Part shown: piece by piece, positions 43,526 to 57,600 of the stretch | Layout of the letters: each line of letters begins with the position of its first letter | Numbering within the stretch: the first letter of the stretch is position 1 | Assembly: GCF_009914755.1 (NCBI RefSeq) | Contig: NC_060929.1 | DNA length: 64,000 nt | Strand: one strand, 5' to 3' | Origin: the human T2T-CHM13v2.0 reference genome, Homo sapiens | Notes under the pieces: model-generated | Databases searched by the model: none | What the model was told of the DNA's origin: nothing | The model's input: only the letters and a program-made list of their open reading frames with translations | Translations under genes and position numbers: made by a program

Positions 43526-43957
43526 TTTCATGCACATCCGTGTGAAGAGACCACCAAACAGGCTTTGTTTGAGCAACATGGCTGTTTATTTCACCTGGGT
43601 GCAGGCGGGCTGAGTCCAAAAAGAGAGTCAGCGAAGGGAGATAGGGGTGGGGCCATTTTATAGGATTTGGGTTGGTAAAGGAAAATTACAGTAAAAGGGG
43701 GTTGTTCTCTGGTGGGCAGGGGTGGGGGTCACAAGGTGCTCAGTTGGGGAGCTTCTGAGCCAGGAGAACAATTCACAGGGTTAATCACTCAGTTAAGGTG
43801 GGGCAGGAACAAATCACAATGGTGGAATATCATCAGTTAAGGTGGGGCAGGACCTTTTCACTTCTTTTGTGATTCTTCAGTTACTTCAGGCCATCTGGGC
43901 GTATACGTGCAAGTCACAGGGAATGCGATGGCTTGGCTTGGGCTCAGAGGCCTGACA
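43526..43957 (-). promoter_or_regulatory. LTR7, 3' LTR of provirus 1
   Basis: TGTCAGGCCTCTGAGCCCAAGC...CATGAAA on the minus strand; AATAAA and TATAAAA present. Confidence 0.95.
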
Positions 43958-44614
43958 TTCCTGCCTTCTTATATTAATAAGAAAAATAAAACAAAATAGT
44001 GTTGAAGTGTTGGGGTGGTGAAAATTTTTGAGGGGTGGTAGGGAGAGAGAATGGGCGATGTTTCTCAGGGCTGCTTCAAGTGGGATTAGGGGCAGCGTGG
44101 GAACCTAGAGTGGGAGAGATTAAGCTGAAGGGAGGTCTTGTGGTAAAGGGTGATATTGTGGGGATGTAAGAAGAAACATTTGTCATATAGAATGATTGGT
44201 GATGGCCTGGATACGGTTTTGTATGAATTGAGAAACTAAATGGAATAACAGAAGGAGAAAAACAGGTATAAAAGGTCTAAGAATTGGGAGGACCTAGGAT
44301 ATCTGATTAGAGAGTGCCTAAGGAGATTCAGCAGAGTCCTGCCAGCAAAGATTATTTATTTACTTCAAGAGTTTAGAGTGGCAGTTTGGGGATAGCACCA
44401 GGAGATATCAGCTGTGATGTCTTGGAGAAACAGTGTAAACCGGCAGTGTAAAGAAAAGCAGGGCATGTATGAGTAGTTGAGAACGGTGAACAGGAGTATG
44501 ACTAACAGATGAGGATGAAATTTGGGCTTCACTGAAGTAATGGGGGCTGTCTGTGAAGCCTTGTGGCAGTGCAGCCCAGGTAATTTGTTGAGCCTAATGG
44601 GTGTCAGGGTCAGT

Positions 44615-45802
44615 CTAAGTGAAGGCAAAGAGAGGCTGGGATGAAGGGTGCAAAGCAATAGTAAAGAAAGCATGTCTGAGATCCAGAACAGAATAATGGG
44701 TAGTAGAGGGAGGTATTGAGGATAGGAGAGTATATGGGTTTGGCACCACGGGGTGGATAGGCAAAACAATTTGGTTGATAAGGCGCAGATCCTGAACTAA
44801 CTTGTAAGGCTTGTCTCGTTTTAGGACAGGAAAAATGGGGGAATTGTAAGGAGAGTTTATAGGGTTTAAAAGGCCATGCTGTAACAGGCGAATGATAACA
44901 GGCTTTAATCTTTTTAAAGCGTGCTGCGGAATGGGATACTGGCATTGAGTGCGGTAAGGGTGATTAGGTTTTAATGAGATGGTAAGGGGTGCATGATCGG
45001 TCGTCAAGGAGGGAGTAGAGATATCTTATACTTGTGGGTTAAGGTGGGGGTATACAAGAGGAGGACACAAAGGAGGCTTTGGATTGGGAAGAAGGGTGGC
45101 AATGAGATACAGCTGTAGTCCAGGAATAGTCAGGGAAGCAGATAATTTAGTTAAAGTGTCTCAGCCTAATAAGGGAACTGGGCAGATGGGGATAACTAAA
45201 AAGGAGTGCTTAAAAGAGTATTGTCTAAGTTGGCACCAGAGTTGGGGAGTTTTAAGAGGTTTAGAAGCCTGGCCGCCAATACCCACAACAGTTATGGAGG
45301 CAAGGGAAACAGGCCCTTGAAAAGAAGGTAATGTGGCGTGGGTAGCCTCCGTATTGATTAAGAAGGGGACGGGCTTACCTTCCACTGTGAGAGTTACCCA
45401 TAGCTCGGCATCCGTGATGGTCAAGGGTGCTTCTGAGGTGATCGGGCAGTGTCAGTCTTCAGCTGCTAAGCCAAGAAGATCTGGGAAGGAGTCAGTCAGA
45501 GAGCCTTTGGCCAGTGTTCCAGGGGCTCTGGGAGTGGCTTCCAGGTGAGTTGAACAGTCCGATTTTCAGTGGGGTCCCACAGAGATGGGACGTGGATTAG
45601 GAGGAATCCCGGGCTGCGGGCATTCCTTGGCCCAGTGGCCAGATTTCTGGCACACGAAGCAAGCTCCTATGGGAGGAGGTTCTGGAGGAACGCGTGGCCA
45701 CTGCAGTTCAGGCGTTTGGAAGTTCTTGTGTGCTGGAGATGTGGCTGGGGTTTGTCTCACAGTGGAGGCAAGGAATTGCAACTTTTTTCTATTATTGTAC
45801 AC
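44615..45802 (-). pseudogene. HERV-H gag(NC)-pro-pol remnants of provirus 1
   Basis: CFVCQKSGHWAKEC zinc knuckle; FLINTEATHATL degenerate protease site; RT N-terminus QYPIPQ...YKLVQDLR...YSVLDLRHAFF; frames broken. Confidence 0.9.
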
Positions 45803-46762
45803 CTTGAAGGCGAGGTTAATTAAATCCTGTTGTGGGGTTTGAGGGCCAGAATTTAATTTTTGGAGTTTTATTTAATGTCAGGAGCAGATTGGGTAATAAA
45901 ATGTATTTTGAGAATAAGACGGCCTTTTGACCTTTTAGGGTCTAAGACTGTAAAGTGTCTCAGGGTTGCTGCCAAATGAGCCATGAACTGGGCTGGATTT
46001 TTATATTTGATGAAACAGAGCCTAAACACTTCTGATTTGGGATAAAGAAAAAGGAGCATTAACCTTGACTATGCCTTTAGCTCCAGCCACCTTTTTAAGA
46101 GTAAATTGCTGGGCAGGTGGGGGAGGGCTAGTCAGGGAATGAAACTGTAAGCCGGACCAGGTGTGAGGAGGGGAGAGGTGGTAAAAAGATTATAGGGTGG
46201 AGGAGCAGAGGCTGAGGAAGAATTGGGACCTAGCTCGGCCTGGCGAGGAGCAGCCTGGGGAAGAAGGGAGAGGTCAGATGGGTCTGTAGAAAAGGAAGAT
46301 TAGAAAGACTCAGCGACGCTTGGGGTTGGTACTGAGGGGACAGGTGGGAGGGAAAGAAGGAAGATTAGGGACGAGTTGCACTGGGCACAGAGACTAGGAA
46401 GGGACTGATGTGTAAAAGAATGCCTGGACGTCAGGCACCTCAGACCGTTTGCCTATTTTACAACAAGAATTATTTAGATTTTGCAGGATGGAAAAATTCA
46501 AAGTGCCATTTTCTGGCTATTTGGAACTACTGTTGAGTTTGTATTGGGGTCAAGCAGCATTGCAGAAGAAAATAAGGCGTTTAAGTTTTAGGTCAGGTGT
46601 GAGTTGAAGAGGTTTTAAGTTTTTGAGAACACAGGCCAAGGGAGTAGAAGGAGGAATGGAGGGTGGAAGGTTGCCCATAGTGAAGGAAGCAAACCTAGAG
46701 AAAAGAGAGAGTAGAGAAATGGAGGGAAGTGGTTCAGGTGTTCTCACCTTCCAGAAAAGGGG

Positions 46763-47110
46763 TTGGGGCACAGAGATAGATCAGGGTGCAGAAATAAGGG
46801 ATTGGGGTGCAGAGATATAAGAGGTTGGGGCGTGGAAATAAGGGATTGGGGCACAGAGATAAGAGGTCAGGGTGCAGAAATAAGGGATTGGGGTGCAGAG
46901 ATAAGAGGTTGGGGTGTGGAAATAAGTGATTGGGGGGTTCTTGCCCCCTAGGAAAGCGGGACTTGCCACTAAGGGTGAAGGAGAAGGGGTTGAGGGGTAC
47001 TTGCCCCTGCCCCAGGAAAGCGGGACTTGCTGCTAAGGGTGAAGGAGAAGGGGTTGAGGGGTACTTGCCCCTGCCCCAGAAAAATGGGACTTGCTGCTAA
47101 GGGTGAAGGA
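46763..47110. repeat. HERV-H leader tandem repeats (~20-bp units, then ~64-bp units)
   Basis: Alternating ggggtgcagaaataagggatt / gagataagaggtt units at 46763-46937, then about 3 copies of ttgccc...gggacttgc...taagggtgaaggag. Confidence 0.85.
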
Positions 47111-47548
47111 CCAAGGCAGGTGTCCCTGCGTGGTCTGACACCTTTGAAACGTGGGTGAATAATCAGAGAGGTGTCCCTGAAATGATTAAACACCAAGGGA
47201 AGGCTGCCTTCCCAGTCCGTGACCGGTGCCAGAGTTTTGGGTCCACGGATAAAACGTGTCTCCTTTGTCTCTACCAAAAGAATTGAAAGGAATTGAAATT
47301 AAGAGAAGGGAGAGATAGAAATGTGGGGCCAAGATTGAAAGGAGAAAGAGGTTGAGGGATAGTGAGGGAGGTTGGAGAAGAGAGTAAAAAGAGGCTGCTT
47401 ACCGGATTTGAAATTGGTGAGATGTTTCTCAGGCTGGTTGTTCTGAGGACCTGAGGTCATTGGTGGATCTTTCTCATGGAGCAAAGAACAAGAGGACAGG
47501 GTATTGATCTCCCAAGGGAGGTCCCCCGATCCGAGTCATGTCTCCAAA

Positions 47549-47976
47549 TTTCATGCGCGTCCGTGTGAAGAGACCACCAAACAGGCTTTGTGTGAGCAAC
47601 ATGGCTGTTTATTTCACCTGGGTACAGGTGGGCTGAGTCCGAAAAGAGAGTCAGCAAAGGGAGTTAAGGGTGGGGCTGTTTTATAGGATTTGGGTAGGTA
47701 AAGGAAAATTACAGTCAAAGGGGGTTGTTCTCTGGTGGGCAGGGGCTGGGGCCACAAGGTGCTCACTTGGGGAGCTTCTGAGCCAGGAGAATGATTCACA
47801 GGGTTAATCAGTTAAGGTGGGGCAGGAACAAATCACAATGGTGGAATGTCATCAGTTAAGGCGGGGCAGGACCTTTTCACTTCTTTTGTGATTCTTCAGT
47901 TACGTCAGGCCATCTGGGCGTATACATGCAAGTCACAGGGGATGCGATGGCTTGGCTTGGGCTCAGAGACCTGACA
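47549..47976 (-). promoter_or_regulatory. LTR7, 5' LTR (promoter) of provirus 1
   Basis: Followed by the PBS; leader splice donor CCG|GTAAGC with GT at 47402-47401; about 25 substitutions and one 4-bp indel versus its 3' LTR (hand count). Confidence 0.95.
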
Positions 47977-48911
47977 TTATATTTAAGTTTTAATCCATTT
48001 TGAGTTAATTTTTGCATATGGTGAGAGATAGGGGTCTAGTTCCATGTCTGCATGTACATACTCAGTTTCCTCCACACTATTTATTGAAGTGATTGCCCTT
48101 TCCCCAACGTGTATTTTTGGCATCTATGTTGAAAATCAGTTGGTTGTAAGTCTGTGGATTTATTTCTAACTGTATTCTAGTCCCTTGGTGTATATGCCTG
48201 TTTTTATGCCACTACCATGCTATTTTGGTTATTACAGCTTTGTAGTACATTTTGAAGCCAGGTATGTGATCCCTCTAGCTTGGTTCTGTTTGCTTAAGAT
48301 TGATTTGGCTATTTGGGGTCTTTTGTGGTTCCATACACATTTTAGGATTTTTCTTTCTATTTCTATGAAGAATATCATGGATATTTTGATAGGTATTACA
48401 TTGAATCTCTAGATTGTTTTGGGTAGTATGGACACTTTAACAATTCCAATTCTTTAAATCAATGAACATGGGGGTATTTTTCTGTATCCTTCTATTTATT
48501 TGTGTCCTCTTCCATTTTTCATCAATGTTTTATAGTTTTTGTTGTAGATATTTTTCACCTTCTTGGTTAGGTTTATTCTTAGGAATCTTATTTTTTGTGC
48601 TATTGTACTGTAAATGAGATTTTTTTCTTGATTTTTAAAGATAGCTTAATAATGCCATCTAAAAATACTACTGATTATCGTAAGTTGATTTTGTGTCCTG
48701 CTACTTTACTAAATTTGTTTATTAATTATAACAGGTTTTGGTGGAGTCTTTAGGGCTTTCCGTCTCTAAGATCATGTTGTCTGCAAACAGGAACGTTTTG
48801 ACGTTTTTCTCTTCAATTTGGATGCCTTTTATCTCTTTCTCTTGTCTTGTTGCTCTGGCTAGGACTTCTGGTACTATGTTGAATAGAAATGATGAATGTG
48901 GGCATCCTTAT

Positions 48912-49343
48912 TTTCATGCGCATCTGTGTGAAGAGACCACCAAACAGGCTTTGTGTGAGCAATAAAGCTTTTAATCACCTGTGTGCAGGTGGGCTGAGTC
49001 CGAAAAGAGAGTCAGCAAAGGGAGATAGGGGTGAGGCCATTTTATAGGATTTGGGAAGGTAATGGAAAATTACAGTAAAAGGGGGTTGTTCTCTGGTGGG
49101 CAGGGGCGGGGGTCACAAGGTGCTCAGTGGGGGAGCTTCTGAGCCAGGAGAAGGAAATTCACAGGGTTAATCATTCAGTTAAGGTGGGGCAGGAACAAAT
49201 CACAATGGTGGAATGACATCAGTTAACACAGGGTAGGGCCTTTTCACTTCTTTTGTGATTCTTCAGTTACTTCAGGCCATCTGGGCATATACGTGCAAGT
49301 CACAGGGGATGCGATGTCTTGGATTGGGCTCAGAGGCCTGACA
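48912..49343 (-). promoter_or_regulatory. LTR7, 3' LTR of provirus 2 (ATTAAA-type R region)
   Basis: R reads GTGATTAAAAGCTTTATTGCTC on the minus strand, unlike the other three LTRs (GAAATAAACAGCCATGTTGCTC). Confidence 0.95.
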
Positions 49344-49949
49344 TTCCTGCCTTCTTATATTAATAAGAAAAATAAAACAAAATAGTGTTGAAGTGTTGGG
49401 GTGGTGAAAATTTTTGAGGGGTGGTAGGGAGAGAGAATGGGCGATGTTTCTCAGGGCTGCTTCAAGTGGGATTAGGGGCAGCGTGAGAACCTAGAGTGGG
49501 AGAGATTAAGCTGAAGGGAGGTCTTGTGGTAAGGGGTGATATTGTGGGGATGTTAGAAGAAACATTTGTCATATAGAATGATTGGTGATGGCCTGGATAC
49601 GGTTTTGTATGAATTGAGAAACTAAATGGAATAACAGAAGGAGAAAAACAGGTATAAAAGGTCTAAGAATTGGGAGGACCTAGGATATCTGATTAGAGAG
49701 TGCCTAAGGAGATTCAGCAGAGTCCTGCCAGCAAAGATTATTTATTTACTTCAAGAGTTAAGAGTGGCAGTTTGGGGATAGCACCAGGAGATATCAGCTG
49801 TGATGGCTTGGAGAAACAGTGTAAACCGGCAGTGTAAAGAAGAGCAGGGCATGTATGAGTAGTTGAGAATGGTAATAGGAGTATGACTAGACAGAAAATA
49901 GTAGGGATGACAAGTTTTTTTTGGGAGGGGGGCACAGTCTAAGTTGGTC

Positions 49950-52130
49950 TGGTGTCTGGAATGAGACTGGGGCCTAATAAAAAGGAGCGTCTATACAGGA
50001 GCTTAAATGGGCTGTACCCTGTAGCATTCTGACAGGCCTGAATTCTGAGAAGGGAAAGTGGTAGAAGTATTGTCCAGTCCTTTTTAAGTTGGTGGCTGAG
50101 CTTGGTGAGGCGTGTTTTTAAAAGACCTTTAGTCCATTCTACTTTTCTTGAAGATGGAGGACCTTAAGGGATATAAAGGTTTCACTGAATACTAAGAGCC
50201 TGAAAAACTGCTTGGCTGATTTGACTAATAAAGGCTCATCTGTTATCAGACTGTATTGAGGTGGGAAGGCTAAACTGAGGAATTATGTCTGACAGAAGGG
50301 AATAAATGACTGCCGTGGCCTTCTCAGACCCTGTACGAAAGGCCTTTACTTATTCAGTGGAAGTGTCTATTTAGACTAAGGGGTATTTTAGTTTCCTGAC
50401 TTGGGCATGTTGAGTAAAGCTAATTTGCCAGTCCTGGGTGGGGGCAAATCCTCGAGCTTGATGTGTAGGGAAGGGAGGGGGCCTGAATAATCCCTGAGGA
50501 GTAGTAGAATAGCAGATGGAACACTGAGAAGTTATTTCCTTGAGGGTAGATTTCCACGATGGAAAAGAAATGAGAGGTTCTAAGAGGCAGGCTAGTGGCT
50601 TGTACTATAGCATAACCTGCCTTTGCTGGTGTGTGGCGATTAGGCCTGGTGGAACCGCCATCAATAAATCAAGCATGATCAGGGTGAGGAAGAGGAAAGA
50701 AGGAAATTTGGGGAAATGGGGTGAATGTCAGGTGGATCAGAGAGATACAGTCATGGGGGTCAGGTGTGGTATCAGGAATAATGTGGGAGGCCGGATTGAA
50801 GTCTGGGCCAGGAACAATGATAATTGTGGGAGACTCAGAAAAGAGTGAGTATAGCTGAAGGAGCCGGGAAGCAGAAAGTATATGCGTCAGGTATGAAGAA
50901 GAAAATAGATTTTGGAAGTTATGAGAACTGTACAGTGAGTTGAGCATAGTTGGGGATTTTGAGGGCCTCTAAAAGTATTAAAGCAGCAGCAGCCGCTGCA
51001 CGCAGACATGAGGGCTAGGCTAAAACAGTAAGGTCAAGTTGTTTGCACAGAAAGGCTACAGGGTGCGGTCCTGGCTCTTGTGTAAGAATTCTGACCACAC
51101 TAACTATGCCTAGGAAGGAAAGGAGTTGTTGTTTTGTAAGGGATTGAGGTTTGGGAGATTAATCGGACATGATCAGCAGGGAAAGCACGTATGTTTTTAT
51201 GAGAATTATGCCGAGATAGGTAACAGGTGAGGATAAAATTTGGGCTTGACTGAAGTAATGGGGGCTGTCTGTGAAGCCTTGCGGCAGTACAGCCTAGGTA
51301 ATTTGCTGAGCCTAATGGGTCTCAGGGTCAGTCTAAGTGAAAGCAAAGAGAGGCTGGGATGAGGGGTGCAGGGGAATAGTGAAAAAATCATCTTTAAGAT
51401 CAAGCATGGAATAGTGAGTTGTGGAGGAAGGTATTGAGGACAAAAGAGTGTACGGGTTGGGCACCACGGGGTGGAGAGGCAAAACAATTTGGTTGATAAG
51501 GTGCAGATCCTGAACTAACTTGTAAGGCTTGTCTGGTTTTAGGACAGGTAAAATGGGGGAATTGTAAGGAGAGTTTATAGGGTTTAAAAGGCCATGCTGT
51601 AGCAGGCAAGTGATAACAGACTTTAATCTTTTTAAAGCGTGCTGGGGGATGGGATATTGGCATTGAGTGAGGTAAGGGTGATTAGGTATTAATGAGATGG
51701 TAAGGGGTGCATGATCGGTCGCCAAGGAGGGAGTAGAGGTATCTTATACTTGTGGGTTAAGGTGGGGGGATAGAAGAGGAGGACGCAAAGGAGACTGGAT
51801 TGGGAAGAAGGGCAGCAATGAGATACAGCTGTAGTCCAGGAATAGTCAGGGAAGCAGATAATTTAGTTAAAGTGTCTCAGACTAATAAGGGAACTGGGCA
51901 GATGGGGATAACTAAAAAGGAGTGCTTAAAAGATTATTGTCTAAGTTGGCACCAGAGTTGGGGAGTTTTAAGAGGTTTAGAAGCCTGGCCATCAATACCC
52001 ACAACAGTTATGGAGGCAAGGGAAACAGGCCCTTGAAAAGAAGGTAATGTGGAGTGGGTAGCCTCCATATTAAGAAGGGGATGGGCTTACCTTCCACTGT
52101 GAGAGTTACCTGAAGCTCGGTGTCCTTGAT
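49950..52130 (-). pseudogene. HERV-H pro-pol remnants of provirus 2 (protease, RT N-terminus, connection/RNase H region)
   Basis: ORF 51333-51725 (YKLVQDLHLIN...YSMLDLKDDFFTIPL) and 50669-50947 (PHDCISLIH); keeps ~1.3 kb absent from provirus 1. Confidence 0.85.
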
Positions 52131-52321
52131 GGTGTAGGGTGCTTCCGAGGCAATCGGGCAGTGTCAGTCTTCAGCTGCTAAGCCAAGAAGATCTGGGAAG
52201 GAATCAGAGAGCCTTGGGCTAGAGCTTTAGGGGCTCTAGGAATGGCTGCCAGGTGAGCTGGGCAGTCTGATTTCCAGTGGGTCCCTGCACAGATGGGACA
52301 TGGCTTGGGAGGAATCCCAGG

Positions 52322-53176
52322 CTACGGGCATTCCTTGGCCCAGTGGCCAGATTTCTGGCACTTGAAGCAAGATCCTGTTGGAGGAAGTCTTGTAGGAATG
52401 CTTGACTGCTGCGGCTTAGGCATTTTGAAGTTCTCATATGCAGGAGGTGTGGCTGGGTTTTGTCTCACAGCAGAGGCAAGTAATTGTAACTCAGAAACGC
52501 GTTGCCGTCTGGCTGCTTCCTCTCTATTATTGTACACCTTGAAGGTGAGGTTGATTAATTCCTGTTGTGGGGTTTGAGGGCCAGATTCTAGTTTTTGAAG
52601 TTTTTTCCTAATGTCAGGAGTGGATTGGGTGATAAAATGCATGTTAAGAATAAGGCGGCCTTCTGGCCCCTCTGGGTCTAGGGAGGTAAAGCGTCTAAGG
52701 GTTGCCGCTAAGCGGGCCATGAACCGGGCTGGGTTTTCATCTTTACCTTGGGTAGTTTCTTTAAGTTTGTCACAATTAACACCTTTGTAAGCTGCTTTTT
52801 TAAGCCCTACGACTAGGCAGGAAAACATGTAATATCGCCTAGCTATACCTGGGGAATTTGCCTGGTAGTTCCATTGGGGATCCTCTCGGGGAACTGCTCT
52901 AATGCCTTCCTGGAGGTCTGGCTCATGAAGCCAGCAGTTATCAGCATGAGATTGGGCCAGAGAAAAAATTCTTTCCCGTGCATCTGAGGAGAGGGTAGAC
53001 GTCAGGATGACATTTAAGTCACTCCAGGTTAAGTTGTAGGACAGAGTTAGATATTGGAATTCCTGTATATATTTAGTGGGGTCTGATGAGAAAGAGCCTA
53101 AACATTGACTGATCTGAGAGAGGTCTGATAGAGAAAAAGGTACATGTGCCCTGACTGTGCCTTCAGCTCCAGCCAC
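52322..53176 (-). CDS. gag: Uninterrupted HERV-H Gag frame (capsid plus NC zinc knuckle); expression unknown
   Basis: 284 codons with HVPFSLSDL, the MHR-like TQGKDENPARFMARL and CFKCQKSGHWAKEC. The track start is GTG; the first in-frame ATG is at 52828. The frame is stop-free back to 53392. Confidence 0.6.
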   Translation of the reverse strand: MAGAEGTVRAHVPFSLSDLSQISQCLGSFSSDPTKYIQEFQYLTLSYNLTWSDLNVILTSTLSSDARERIFSLAQSHADNCWLHEPDLQEGIRAVPREDPQWNYQANSPGIARRYYMFSCLVVGLKKAAYKGVNCDKLKETTQGKDENPARFMARLAATLRRFTSLDPEGPEGRLILNMHFITQSTPDIRKKLQKLESGPQTPQQELINLTFKVYNNREEAARRQRVSELQLLASAVRQNPATPPAYENFKMPKPQQSSIPTRLPPTGSCFKCQKSGHWAKECP

Positions 53177-53311
53177 CTCTCTAAGAGGAAATTGTTGGGC
53201 AGGTGGGGAAGAGCTAGTCGCGGAACTAAACTGTAAGCCAGACCGGGTGTGAGGAGGGGAGGTGGTAGAAGGATTATAAGGTGAAGGAGCAGAGGCTGAG
53301 GAAGAATTGGG

Positions 53312-54072
53312 GGTGGAGAAAACAACATTTTTGTTGAGATTTAGTTTATTTGAATACTTGGGATAGCCAGGAGTTAAGGAGATACCTTTTAGTCATACAC
53401 ATCCACATGTCAAAGCCATCACATTGCAGCTATGGGTATACATTTGGGTGCCATGCACTTAATGATGAAAGTTTAGATGGGAAGATGTTGGGCATTATGA
53501 AAGAGAGAGAAAAGCAAGGGAAAGAGTAAAGGCCAAAGAGAGTATCAGGTGGTCAGAATGTCAAATTTTGCAGATAAGTGGGCAGCAAAGTATTTTTCGT
53601 GCTTGGGTGATCACTGGCAACATTAAGGAGAACTTTTAGTCTAATGCTGGGAGTAGGGTCTAGAAATAAAAGTCCCAAGTGAGGCAAAAATAATGAAAGA
53701 GAGAGAGAGACAGAGCTCTCCATCTGGTATGGTTTATTTTGTGACTTGAACTGTGATGTGCTGTTAGGGTGGCCAGATTGAGTTAAGCTGATCAACCATC
53801 CCAGTTTGCTCAGGACAGTCCCGTTTTAGCACGAAAAATCTGCATCCCAGGAATCTCCCTAGTTCTGGGCAAGCTGGGATGGTTTGTCACCCTACAATTC
53901 TTAGGGCAACATACGGCACTTAGTAGGTTTTCAGTAAGTATTTGTTCAGTGAATGAAAAAAAAAAAAACAGAGACAGATCAACATCTCTGGGGCTAAGTT
54001 CCTTAAGTTTGTAAAATGAGGTTAGAAATATCTGTAGTAGCCAGCACATGAGGTTATTTTGACAACCAGATG
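53312..54072. other. Non-viral host-genome segment inside provirus 2
   Basis: No similarity to the provirus 1 leader. Contains L2-like text (~53330-53700), MER94, an L2 3' end plus poly-A (~53900-53968) and a MIR-like core (~53985-54030). Confidence 0.88.
53765..53894. mobile_element. MER94 (hAT-Blackjack MITE)
   Basis: TIRs TAGGGTGGCCA / TGTCACCCTA, palindromic body aaccatcccagtttgctcagga...tctgggcaagctgggatggtt, 130 bp. Confidence 0.8.
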
Positions 54073-54075
54073 TTT

Positions 54076-54206
54076 CGGCACCAAATTTCATGCGCGCCCC
54101 TGTGAAGAGACCACCAAACAGGCTTTGTGTGAGCAACAAAAAACGGCACCAAATTTCATGTGTGTCTGCGTGAAGAGACCACCAAACAGGTTTTGTGTGA
54201 GCAACA
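54076..54206 (-). repeat. Tandem duplication of a 63-bp R-end/U5/partial-PBS unit
   Basis: cggcaccaaatttcatg...gtgtgagcaaca at 54076-54138 and 54144-54206, separated by AAAAA. Confidence 0.95.
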
Positions 54207-54606
54207 TGGCTGTTTATTTCACCTGGGTGCTGGGGGGCTGAGTCCGAAAAGAGAGTCAGGGAAGGGAGATAAGGGTGGGGCTGTTTTACAGGATTTGGGT
54301 AGGTAAAGGAAAATTACAGTCAAAGGGGGTTTGTTCTCTGGTGGGCAGGAGTGGGGGTCGCAAGGTGTTCAGTGGGGGTGCTTTTTGAGCCAGGATGAGG
54401 CAGGAAAAGGATTTTCACAAGGTAATATCATCAGTTAAGGCAAGGACCAGCCATTTACACTTCTTTTGTGGTGGAATGTCATCAGTTAAGGTGGGGCAGG
54501 GCGTATTCACTTCTTTTGTGATTCTTCAGTTACTTCAGGCCATCTGGGTGTATACGTGCAAGTCACAGGGGATGTGATGGCTTGGCTTGGGCTCAGAGGC
54601 CTGACA
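54154..54606 (-). promoter_or_regulatory. LTR7up-like 5' LTR of provirus 2
   Basis: Minus strand GACATTCCACCACAAAAGAAGTGTAAATGGC...CTCATCCTGGCTCAAAAAGCACCCCCAC matches my recollection of LTR7up. 453 bp versus 428-432 bp for the other LTRs. TATA is mutated to TGTAAAA (54284-54290). Confidence 0.8.
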
Positions 54607-57600
54607 CTTATAGACCTTAGAAGAAAAACTTTCAACCTTTCATTATTCACTGAGATATTAGCTATGGATATGTCATATATGGCTTTTATCATTTTCAGGC
54701 ACATATCTTCTGTGCCTAATTTGTTGAGACTTTTTATCATGAAGGGATGTTGAATTTTGTCAATTGTTTTGTCTGCATTTATTGAAATAATAGTATAATT
54801 TTTGCTCTTCATTTTGTTAATATGATGAATAATATTTATTGATTTGCAAATGTTGAACCATCCTTGCTTCCATAGGATGAACCATACTTAATCATGGTGA
54901 ATTATTTTTTTAATGTGCTATAGAATTCAGTTTGCTATTTTGTTGAGGACTTTTGCCTCTGTATTTATCAGAGATATTGGCCTACAGATTTCTTTTTTGT
55001 GATTGTTGTGCCCTTGTATAGTTGGAATAAGGATAATGCCAGCCGTATAGAATGATTTTGGAAGAATTCTGTCCTCTTTAATTTTCTGGAGTAGATTGAG
55101 AATAACTGGTATTAGTTCTTCAAGTGTTAGAATTCAGCAATGAAGCCATCAGGTCCTGGGCTTTTCTTTGATAGAAATTTTTTTTATTAATAATTCAATC
55201 TTGTAACTCATTATTAGTCTGTTCAGATTTTCTGTTTCTTCATGATTCAATCTTGGTAAGTTGTATTTGTTCAGGAATTTATCCATTTCTGATAGGTTCT
55301 CTAATTTTCTGGCATATGGTTGTTAATAATAGCCTCAGATGATCCTTTGTATTTCTGTGGAATTAGTTGTAACATCTCCTTTTAGTCTCTGATTTTATTT
55401 ATCTGAGTCTTTTCCTTTTTTTCTCAATTAGTCTGTCTAAAAGTTTATGTGTTTTGTTTATTTTTTTAAAAAGCAACTCTTCATTAACTTTTGCACTTTT
55501 AATTCTTAGTTTCATTGATTTGTTTTATCTTTATGACTTATTTCCTTCTACTAAGTAAGGGTTTTGTTTGTCCTTGTTTTTCTTACTCCTTGAGGTGCAA
55601 TATTAAATTTTATATTTGAGACTTTTCTTCTTCTTTGATGTAAATGCATTGCTATAAATTTTCCCTCTGAGTACTACTTTTGCTGTATCCCATAGGTTTT
55701 GGTATGTGTGCTTCCATTCTCTTTTGTTTCTAGAAGTTTTTAAAATTTACCTTTTAATATTTTTATAATTCATTCGTTGTTCAGGAGCATGTTTTTTAAA
55801 ATTCCCATGTATCTGTATGGTTTGCAAAGTTCCTCTTGTTATTGATTTCTACTTCCATACCATTGTAGTAAGCACCAATTCTTAATACAATTTCAATTTT
55901 TTACAATTTGTTGAGACTTATTTTGTGGCCCACTAAATGGTTTATCTTGGATGATGTTACACGTGCCCTAGAGAATAATGTATATTCTACTAATGTTGGA
56001 TGGAAAGTTCTGTATATATCCTTAGGTCCATTTTGTCTTAAGTATAGCTCAATTTCAGTAGTTTCTTAATTTTCTGTCTGCTTAATCTGTCCATTGTTGG
56101 AAGTAGGGTATTGAAGTCCACAACTATTATTGTTTTGCTATCTGTTTCTCCCTTCATGTTCATTAACGTTTGCTTCATTAGGTGCTCCAATATTGTGTGC
56201 ATATATATTTACAATTGTTATGTCTTCTTGATAAGCTGGTGCTTCATCATTAAATGATGACGTTTGTCTCTTGTGGCAGTTTTTGACTTGAAGTCTATTT
56301 TACATGACATAAATATAGTCACCTCTGCTCTATTTTGGTTACCATTTTCATGAAATATCTTCTTCCTCCCATTTACTTTCAGCCTATGTGTGTCCTTAAG
56401 GTTTAAGTGTGAATCTCTCAAAGGCAGAATATATTTGGATCTTCTTTTTGTAAAATGCATTTAGCCCCTCTGTGTCCTTGGATTGGAGAATTTAATTTAC
56501 GTTCAAAGTAATTATTAATAGGTAAGGACTTACTACTGTCAGGTTGTTAATTTCCTACTGGTTGTTTTGTAAATGCTTTGTTCCTTTTTTCCTCTCTTGT
56601 TTATCTTTGTGATTTGCTGATTTTCTTCAGTGTTAATTTTGATTTTTTTATTATACATGTATTTGCTATAGTTTTATTGCCTCATGAACATCATGAGGTT
56701 ATCATAGAACATCTTATAGTTAATAATAGACAATTTGACATTGATAACTTCAGTCACATACAAAAGCTCTATGCTTTTACCCTTCTCCCCACAATTTATA
56801 ATTTCGATGTCACAATTTATATTTTATATTACATATTTCTTAACAATTTGTTGCAACTATTATTACTTTTGACTGTTTTGACTTTTAACCTTCACACTAG
56901 ATATATGTGTGAATTATAATACGTCATAACAGTATTGGTCTATTTTGGACTTGACTATATATTTACCTTTATCAGTGAACTTTTTACTTTCATATGTTTT
57001 CATGTTAGTGATTAGTATCTTTTCATTTCTACTTTAAGAACTCCCTTACGCATTTCTTATAGGATAGGTTTAGTGATGATATAGTCTCTCAACTTTTGCT
57101 TATCTGGAAAATACTTTTTTTTTCCTTTATTTCTGAAGTACCTCCTTGCTGGGTATAGTATTCTTCACTAGCAATTTTTTTTCTTTTGGCATTTAAATGC
57201 ACCATCCCATTCTTTCCTGGCCTGCAGGATTTCTGCTGAGAAATCAGCTGATAGTTTAATAGAGATTCCCTTATACATGATTTGATGCTTTTCTCTTGCT
57301 GCTTTTAAAATTGTCTGTTTGTCTTTGACTTTTGGCAATTTAATTAAATGTGCCTCAGTGAGGACTTCTTTGCGTTAAGTCTGTTTGGGAATCCTTGAGT
57401 TTTATGCATCTGGCTGTCCACATCTCTTCCAAAACTTAGAAACTTTTCAACAATTATTTCATTAAATAAGCTTTCTGTTCCTATGTTTGTCTTTCCTCCT
57501 TCTTGAATTCCTATGAATGTTTGTTTGCTCAGCTGTGTTCCATAAATCCTGTAGGATCTCTTCAATCTTTTTCATTCTTTTTTTTTCCTTCTAACTGGGT

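What the first reader, a model, noticed from the sequence alone, without database searches (positions are those of the whole stretch)
48912..54606. One integration site, two different LTR7 types
Seen: the 3' LTR (432 bp) has U3 block gagcttctgagccaggagaaggaaattcacagggttaatc...gaacaaatcacaatgg and an ATTAAA-type R. The 5' LTR (453 bp) has gtgctttttgagccaggatgaggcaggaaaagg...ccatttacacttcttttgtgg and an AATAAA-type R. These are block differences, not point drift. Known: reverse transcription makes the two LTRs identical at integration. Inference: one LTR was replaced afterwards, most simply an LTR7up-like promoter grafted onto a provirus with undeleted gag, perhaps in the event that brought in the host insert.
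Basis: partly seen in the sequence, partly recalled or inferred. Interest (0 to 1): 0.7.

Follow-up and report, generated by a model that had tools for sequence, protein, structure and literature searches.

The report
Chimeric HERV-H with captured chromosome-6 DNA
A single ancient retrovirus insertion on human chromosome 5 has two different end-repeats and holds a 0.77-kb copy of the DNA lying just behind a related virus on chromosome 6, likely stitched together while the viral RNA was being copied, which would make it a rare traceable fossil of retroviral capture of host DNA.

Summary
Observation confirmed. Window 48912-54606 (minus strand) is one HERV-H insertion in an old L1 with colinear flanks. 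Its LTRs are 82% identical and fall in separate clades (100/100). A published table labels them 7u2 (3') and 7up1 (5') but lists them as a truncated provirus and a solo LTR. New here: the 775-bp host insert has one full-length paralog, the 3' flank of a transcribed 7up1 provirus on chr6. That provirus's 3' LTR carries the same rare U5/part-PBS repeat (3 loci genome-wide). The insert joins gag through 14 nt of microhomology. It joins the LTR through 12 nt complementary to the tRNA-Phe 3' end, which the donor DNA lacks. The copy is about as old as the donor (3.4% versus 3.5%). Most likely the provirus was born chimeric in reverse transcription: read-through RNA capture plus an aberrant, intermolecular plus-strand transfer (0.55). 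The body is 7up-like, so the 3' LTR may be the stranger. Primate orthologs could not be checked. New variant of known mechanisms; moderate interest.

The parts
48907..48911 (+). Target-site duplication, left copy (CTTAT), in an old antisense L1
48912..49343 (-). 3' LTR, 432 bp, LTR7u2 type with ATTAAA-type R
   Evidence: label from PMC8912925 supplement 2
49344..49869 (-). env remnant homogenised with neighbour provirus A by later local gene conversion (6/526 differences, 6 shared rare variants)
49870..53311 (-). HERV-H body (env/pol/pro/gag remnants, many stops); 7up-lineage states; keeps 52745-53083, which A lacks; leader, true PBS and gag start are missing
53298..53311 (-). 14-nt microhomology shared by HERV-H gag and the chr6 flank: the flank-to-gag junction
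53298..54072 (-). Captured host DNA, a copy of G000:C6:115604676-115605453, the 3' flank of a chr6 LTR7up1 provirus (26/771 substitutions, 4 indels)
54072..54083 (-). 12 nt complementary to the 3' end of tRNA-Phe(GAA), then the jump into the flank copy; only the first 8 nt also fit the His-type PBS; the chr6 donor has TSD and flank here instead
54086..54153 (-). Extra U5 copy plus 8-nt part-PBS and T run; this junction occurs at only three loci (here, chr6 3' LTR, a chr1 5' LTR)
54154..54606 (-). 5' LTR, 453 bp, LTR7up1 with the 8-bp AAAAGAAG insertion and AATAAA-type R; overlaps RefSeq enhancer 54262-54777
54607..54611 (+). Target-site duplication, right copy (CTTAT); L1 continues
43526..47976 (-). 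Neighbour provirus A (LTR7u2, TTACA/TTATA TSD) in the same L1; conversion partner of 49344-49869, not the donor of either LTR

Best explanation
This is one HERV-H insertion whose 5' end carries the rare U5 repeat of a chr6 provirus's 3' LTR and a copy of that provirus's 3' flank, and it was likely born chimeric during reverse transcription of two co-packaged RNAs. Inferred steps: (1) RNA 1 was a genome with 7u2 ends and a 7up-like body with less-deleted gag; RNA 2 was a read-through transcript of the chr6 7up1 provirus running about 790 nt past its 3' LTR. (2) Minus-strand DNA from RNA 1 made the 7u2 3' LTR and copied env-pol-gag, then switched at the 14-nt microhomology into the flank on RNA 2. 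This lost the leader and the PBS, so a normal second transfer was impossible. (3) RNA 2 was also primed, by tRNA-Phe, possibly at a part-PBS inside its repeated U5, and gave a plus-strand strong-stop DNA ending in a tRNA-Phe copy. (4) That DNA annealed aberrantly to the first minus strand at the LTR/flank boundary. Both ends were then proper LTR ends and integrase inserted the molecule with a 5-bp duplication. Much later, local conversion with neighbour A overwrote about 530 bp beside the 3' LTR. The product lacks PBS and leader and would be a dead end. Shown: one site, two subfamilies, the donor locus, both junction sequences, the A/B tract. Inferred: timing at birth, the RNA route, and the source of the 5' U3.
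For: The insert has 1 full-length paralog among 34 non-self matches, 95% identical, directly behind a HERV-H 3' LTR and in the sense direction. The donor has an intact TAATG duplication and its flank continues past the junction, so the direction is chr6 to chr5. The U5-repeat junction has 4 matches at 3 loci. The 14-nt microhomology is the longest exact match between 2.27 kb of donor flank and the donor's body. The tRNA-Phe run is 12 nt. Exact LTR-end plus Phe-type starts number 3, against 273 His-type. Of three other Phe-type loci read, two are also mis-joined at the PBS, one after the same 12 nt. Age: flank copy 26/771 (3.4%) versus donor LTR pair 16/453 (3.5%). The 5' LTR has none of 7 variants private to the donor 3' LTR, and both LTRs are equally far from their own clades (median 5.1% and 5.3%). 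Both subfamilies spread about 10-14 Mya (PMC8912925). The donor is scored as transcribed and bound by NANOG/OCT4/SOX2/KLF4. A 7u2-LTR element with a 7up-like 3' body exists (L032, 1 of 12). The junction lies 34 nt behind the first AATAAA of the flank (weak).
Against: [quoted passage not shown] The 5' U3 lacks two variants that both donor LTRs share (positions 191 and 242; 0 of 29 in the panel). It carries C104, found in 2 of 29 panel LTRs, one of them a close gag relative on chr9. This needs later homogenisation of the donor's LTRs: they are identical over 177 bp, p=0.005, which fits but does not prove it. The 5' LTR does not group with the donor LTRs in the tree and is no closer to them (28/453) than to others. 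None of the four gag relatives checked has 7u2 LTRs. Only 3-4 of the 12 tRNA-matching bases go beyond the part-PBS already in the donor, and two adjacent deletions could also make them. If the RNA were cut 10-30 nt after that AATAAA (recalled norm), it would end just short of the microhomology. DNA-level conversion demonstrably acts at this locus.
Confidence: 0.55

Rival explanations
1. Post-integration DNA repair. A break in the 5' part of a normal provirus invaded the chr6 3' LTR, copied through it and 0.77 kb of flank, and rejoined gag at the microhomology.
For: Explains the intact target site without rare strand transfers. Ectopic and LTR-LTR conversion are known in ERVs (passages of PMC8781664) and are seen here between A and B and probably within the donor. 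Microhomology joints also occur in DNA repair (established knowledge).
Against: Needs two adjacent deletions exactly at the PBS that rebuild a tRNA-Phe complement. Near-identical templates lay 1-5 kb away. The event would have to fall right after the donor inserted (0 of 7 donor-private variants).
Confidence: 0.18
2. Capture at birth with two matching 7up1 LTRs; the 3' LTR was replaced soon afterwards by a 7u2 LTR from elsewhere. Here the 3' LTR is the stranger.
For: Body 7up-like at 7 of 7 sites. 4 of 4 gag relatives checked carry 7up/7u1-type U3. C104 is shared with the chr9 relative. The later A/B tract could hide the switch point. Needs only an intramolecular second transfer.
Against: No donor stands out for the 3' LTR (best hit 95%; long own branch). 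It lacks the variants private to A's LTRs, and the third neighbour is 7up1. LTR type and body type are reassorted in the panel in both directions, so body type is weak evidence.
Confidence: 0.15
3. Classic read-through transduction gave a long provirus (7u2 LTR, chr6 body, chr6 3' LTR, flank, gag-pol-env, 7u2 LTR). Later recombination between the outer 5' LTR and the inner chr6 LTR, within their first 101 bases, removed the chr6 body.
For: Uses only textbook steps. The first 101 bases hold no site that separates the two clades among the sites tabulated, so a crossover there would be invisible.
Against: Predicts three U5 copies and an intact flank boundary, not the Phe-type junction. Recombination between the two identical 7u2 LTRs should win.
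Confidence: 0.08
4. Two independent insertions: a solo 7up1 LTR beside a truncated 7u2 provirus, as the published annotation lists them.
For: PMC8912925 supplement 2 lists them apart. The L1 has a natural 5-bp repeat at the site.
Against: The DNA between them is not native to chr5 but a chr6 copy tied to the LTR's own U5 repeat. The outer flanks are colinear L1 in 4 of 4 copies, and the 'solo' LTR has no duplication of its own.
Confidence: 0.02

Closest known systems
HERV-H LTR7up1 and LTR7u2 subfamilies (Carter et al. 2022, PMC8912925)
   Same: The two LTRs are listed members (hg38 chr5:136,551,573-136,552,021 7up1; 136,546,330-136,550,728 7u2). The subfamilies are contemporaneous, and recombination by template switching is proposed there as a driver.
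   Different: That work treats block exchange between subfamilies. Its tables list this element as a solo LTR plus a truncated provirus, not as one insertion with two LTR types and captured host DNA.
Retroviral transduction of host sequence by polyadenylation read-through (passage in PMC4997597; Swain and Coffin, Zhang and Temin recalled)
   Same: Sense 3' flank of a transcribed provirus, joined to viral sequence at a short microhomology.
   Different: A germline fossil with the donor still in the genome; non-coding cargo; the capture removed PBS and leader; the LTRs do not match.
Intermolecular second-strand transfer (Cappy et al. 2017, PMC5651808)
   Same: Would give a provirus whose 5' LTR comes from the second RNA of a heterozygous particle.
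   Different: Inferred there from HIV-1 recombination patterns with a normal PBS. Here the joint is aberrant, carries a tRNA-Phe-type piece and lands in host DNA.
Ectopic recombination and gene conversion between ERV LTRs (Johnson and Coffin; Hughes and Coffin; as summarised in PMC8781664)
   Same: Discordant LTR trees, reported also for a HERV-H locus; the A/B tract here is of this kind.
   Different: The cases in those passages exchange homologous sequence only; none of them describes carrying unique flank across chromosomes.

Membership tests
HERV-H provirus | LTR7-type LTRs ending TGTCAGG...CATGAAA with a 5-bp target duplication | tested here: met
   caveat on the L1 repeat
HERV-H provirus | gag-pro-pol-env remnants colinear with other HERV-H | tested here: met
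   Gag_p30 and zf-CCHC in 1 of 3 stretches scanned
HERV-H provirus | Full His-type PBS and leader after the 5' LTR | tested here: not met
   8-nt part-PBS, then a 12-nt Phe-type piece, then host DNA: a rearranged, defective copy
LTR7up1 (5' LTR) | 8-bp AAAAGAAG insertion in block 2b (shared with 7u1) and placement in the 7up clade | tested here: met
   published label 7up1
LTR7up1 (5' LTR) | Transcription in ESC (typical, not universal) | not testable with these tools
   published table: NANOG 1, KLF4 1, RNA 0, SOX2 0, OCT4 0
LTR7u2 (3' LTR) | Other block 2b type, no 8-bp insertion, groups with about 434-bp copies | tested here: met
   the name comes from the published label, not from a comparison with reference models
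Read-through retroviral transduction | Captured DNA is the sense 3' flank of a provirus | tested here: met
Read-through retroviral transduction | Short-homology junction to viral sequence | tested here: met
   14 nt
Read-through retroviral transduction | RNA intermediate and capture during reverse transcription | tested here: inconclusive
   tRNA-Phe-type piece and matching age support it; no intron loss or poly(A) relic to prove it
Read-through retroviral transduction | Donor makes read-through RNA that covers the junction | not testable with these tools
   donor scored RNA=1 but Chimeric Transcript=0; no reads available
Post-integration ectopic replacement | An older ortholog with matching LTRs; event younger than the insertion | not testable with these tools
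   no primate genomes held; supplements of PMC6629862 (no coordinates) and PMC9483895 (0 hits) did not help; internal dating shows no lag

The most novel reading that the evidence does not exclude
A germline provirus born with two different LTRs: a traceable fossil in which one round of reverse transcription captured a named donor's 3' flank, used a second tRNA (Phe) and joined strands from two genomes. Mis-priming by tRNA-Phe and faulty plus-strand transfer would then be a recurring source of HERV-H rearrangement, moving 7up promoters and host DNA between chromosomes during the great-ape burst.
Probability: 0.45. Interest if true: 0.65.

Novelty: new variant of a known kind. Interest (0 to 1): 0.5.

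Why it matters
Read-through capture and intermolecular plus-strand transfer are known mainly from cell culture and from inference on HIV recombinants. A fixed germline copy with donor, junctions and primer mark all readable would be a natural test case, and ape orthologs can decide it. It is also a counter-example for two routine assumptions. LTR-pair dating would make this element about three times too old (12% versus 3.5%), and repeat annotation splits it into a false solo LTR and a truncated provirus. No function is shown: the element is a dead end and is scored untranscribed in ESC.

Tried and rejected
Source of the insert inside the window: none. Neighbour A as donor of the 3' LTR: rejected; B lacks variants shared by both A LTRs and the LTRs differ at 32/430. 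Third neighbour at C5:137.09 Mb as donor: rejected; it is 7up1 and differs from the 5' LTR at 28-31 sites. The chr1 provirus with the same U5 repeat as direct source: rejected; the 5' LTR lacks the variants shared by its two LTRs. A416, shared only with the donor's 5' LTR (0 of 58 panel copies), is a single site and was not counted as support. Ortholog data from papers: PMC6629862 supplement is keyed by ids without coordinates; PMC9483895 supplements gave 0 hits for six coordinate strings. Literature searches gave no description of this structure. Of the two 5q31.1 papers, one lists neighbour A and the other an element at other coordinates. The library lacks most subscription papers and older HERV-H work, and bioRxiv supplements were not open, so absence from print is not established. 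Earlier scan findings were not available.
Full report
Setting. The window holds two HERV-H proviruses on the minus strand, 935 bp apart in one old L1: A (43526-47976) and B (48912-54606). The finding concerns B.

Observation. B's LTRs are 432 and 453 bp, 82.4% identical by BLAST, with block differences in U3 and different R types. Ten other pairs differ by 1.6-5.8%; seven of them were selected by likeness to the query and could not have been discordant. I fetched the 30 best-scoring loci for each LTR (40 scored of 3273 and of 2298 candidates), dropped the two self hits and built a 66-row tree with the 8 focal LTRs. The B LTRs fall on opposite sides of a 100/100 branch. Supplements 1 and 2 of Carter et al. 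(PMC8912925; I read the abstract, sections 6, 9, 11, 14 and 39, and searched rows of these two files) label the 5' LTR 7up1 'solo', the 3' LTR plus body 7u2 'truncated', and A 7u2 'full'. CTTAT flanks both ends. The L1 family has its own 5-bp repeat there, but the flanks are colinear in 4 of 4 L1 copies. So this is one site.

The insert has a donor. Of 34 non-self matches to 53313-54070, one is full length: G000:C6:115.60 Mb, 95% identical. The rest are short hits to repeats inside it. On chr6 this DNA lies directly behind the 3' LTR of another HERV-H, whose TAATG duplication is intact and whose flank continues past the junction. The direction is therefore chr6 to chr5. The donor matches hg38 chr6:114,422,302-114,428,296, labelled 7up1 and scored as transcribed with NANOG, OCT4, KLF4 and SOX2 bound. 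Its 3' LTR has three U5 copies separated by a part-PBS; B's 5' LTR has two. The junction of that repeat has 4 matches at 3 loci: chr5, chr6 and the 5' LTR of a chr1 provirus.

Junctions. Flank to gag: 14 nt of microhomology, the longest exact match between 2.27 kb of flank and the donor's body. A second 14-nt match to B's body lies further out, so such matches are not extremely rare. The junction lies 34 nt after the first AATAAA of the flank. LTR to flank: B reads 12 nt complementary to the tRNA-Phe(GAA) 3' end and then enters the flank 8 nt past the donor's LTR end. The first 8 nt are common to the His and Phe sites, so the specific signal is 3-4 nt plus its position. Exact Phe-type starts after a HERV-H LTR end number 3, against 273 His-type. 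I read three of the other 15 matches. One has a near-complete Phe site and a normal leader. One has the same 12 nt and then jumps back into the His site. One has a Phe site joined to sequence far downstream. Phe priming with faulty transfer therefore happened in this family (inference). Leader, true PBS and gag start are lost, so B would not replicate further.

Timing. The flank copies differ at 26/771 sites; the donor's LTRs differ at 16/453. B's 5' LTR has none of seven variants private to the donor's 3' LTR; it shares one CpG change that is also in 7 of 29 panel copies. Both B LTRs are equally far from their clades. 7up1 and 7u2 spread together about 10-14 Mya. The copy was made about when the donor inserted, while the family was active.

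Against my reading. The 5' U3 is not shown to come from chr6. It lacks two variants shared by both donor LTRs, carries C104 like a close gag relative on chr9, and does not group with the donor. All three sites lie in a 177-bp stretch where the donor's LTRs are identical (p=0.005 against 100,000 random placements), as later conversion would leave them, but this is untested. B's body is 7up-like at 7 of 7 sites in 50019-50727 (12 versus 15 panel copies). The four gag relatives checked, of 39 other loci listed, carry 7up/7u1-type U3. So the 3' LTR may be the foreign one. LTR and body types are, however, reassorted in the panel, and one 7u2 element has a 7up-like 3' body. DNA-level conversion is real here: A and B differ at 6/526 sites next to the 3' LTR, against 32/430 in the LTR and 61/851 in pol, and share six rare variants in that tract.

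Mechanism. The most economical account uses two co-packaged RNAs. A minus strand from a 7u2-ended genome switches at the microhomology into the donor's read-through flank and so loses its PBS. A Phe-primed plus-strand strong-stop DNA from the donor RNA anneals to it aberrantly and supplies the left end. Integrase inserts the chimera (0.55). Read-through capture is described in a passage of PMC4997597. Intermolecular second transfer is proposed in PMC5651808 (first part of the text and most of the discussion read), which also calls it the exception. Rivals: later ectopic repair from chr6 (0.18), early replacement of the 3' LTR (0.15), a long product trimmed by LTR recombination (0.08), two insertions (0.02).

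Literature. Searches found no account of this structure; searches were for background. From PMC8781664, PMC6629862, PMC7472051, PMC3253121 and PMC12145686 I saw passages only; from PMC6629862 and PMC9483895 also supplement searches. Swain and Coffin, Zhang and Temin and the usual cleavage distance after AATAAA are recalled. Older HERV-H papers and unseen supplements may bear on novelty and on ortholog states.

Verdict. A real feature, mis-split by annotation, with an identified donor. The mechanisms are known kinds; their combination in one traceable germline copy was not found in the searches named. No function is shown. Interest 0.5.

Noticed in passing
window 43958-44483 and 49344-49869: Local gene conversion between proviruses A and B: 6/526 differences and six shared rare variants; a 30-nt pattern matches exactly only at these two places.
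   Followed up: yes
G000:C5:137087900-137093860 (just beyond the window): A third HERV-H (7up1, full in the published table) on the same strand: three proviruses within about 30 kb.
   Followed up: partly
L010 464-1051 (chr6) and L015 378-901 (chr1): U5/part-PBS tandem copies are unequal between the ends: chr6 has three at the 3' LTR and one at the 5'; chr1 has two at the 5' and one at the 3'. Likely relics of faulty plus-strand transfer.
   Followed up: partly
L010 LTR positions 87-263: The chr6 LTRs are identical over 177 bp but differ at 16 sites elsewhere (p=0.005): probable LTR-LTR conversion.
   Followed up: partly
L081, L082, L083 (C4:100.45 Mb, C7:114.56 Mb, C2:192.62 Mb): HERV-H copies with Phe-type primer sites; two of the three are mis-joined right at the site.
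   Followed up: partly
L075 (C23:93.149 Mb) and L056 (C1:54.90 Mb): A 5' LTR followed by a PBS fragment and a second LTR; a short duplication at the PBS.
   Followed up: no
window 52322-53392, minus strand: A stop-free stretch of 356 codons runs from the captured flank into gag (Gag_p30, zf-CCHC); its first Met is at codon 189; no evidence of expression.
   Followed up: partly
window 54289 (5' LTR position 318): The TATA-like TATAAAA of most copies has a G here (2 of 29 panel copies too), in line with RNA=0 in the published table; no test of cause.
   Followed up: no
window 43526-43957 and 47549-47976: A's LTRs are themselves mosaic: 7u2-type U3 block with 7up-like states from about position 300 on and an AATAAA-type R. 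A is listed as '5q31.1d' in a colorectal cancer table.
   Followed up: no
C1:217828355 (+) and C1:217834663 (-): Two 7u2-like LTRs 6.3 kb apart on opposite strands, possibly a part-inverted provirus.
   Followed up: no
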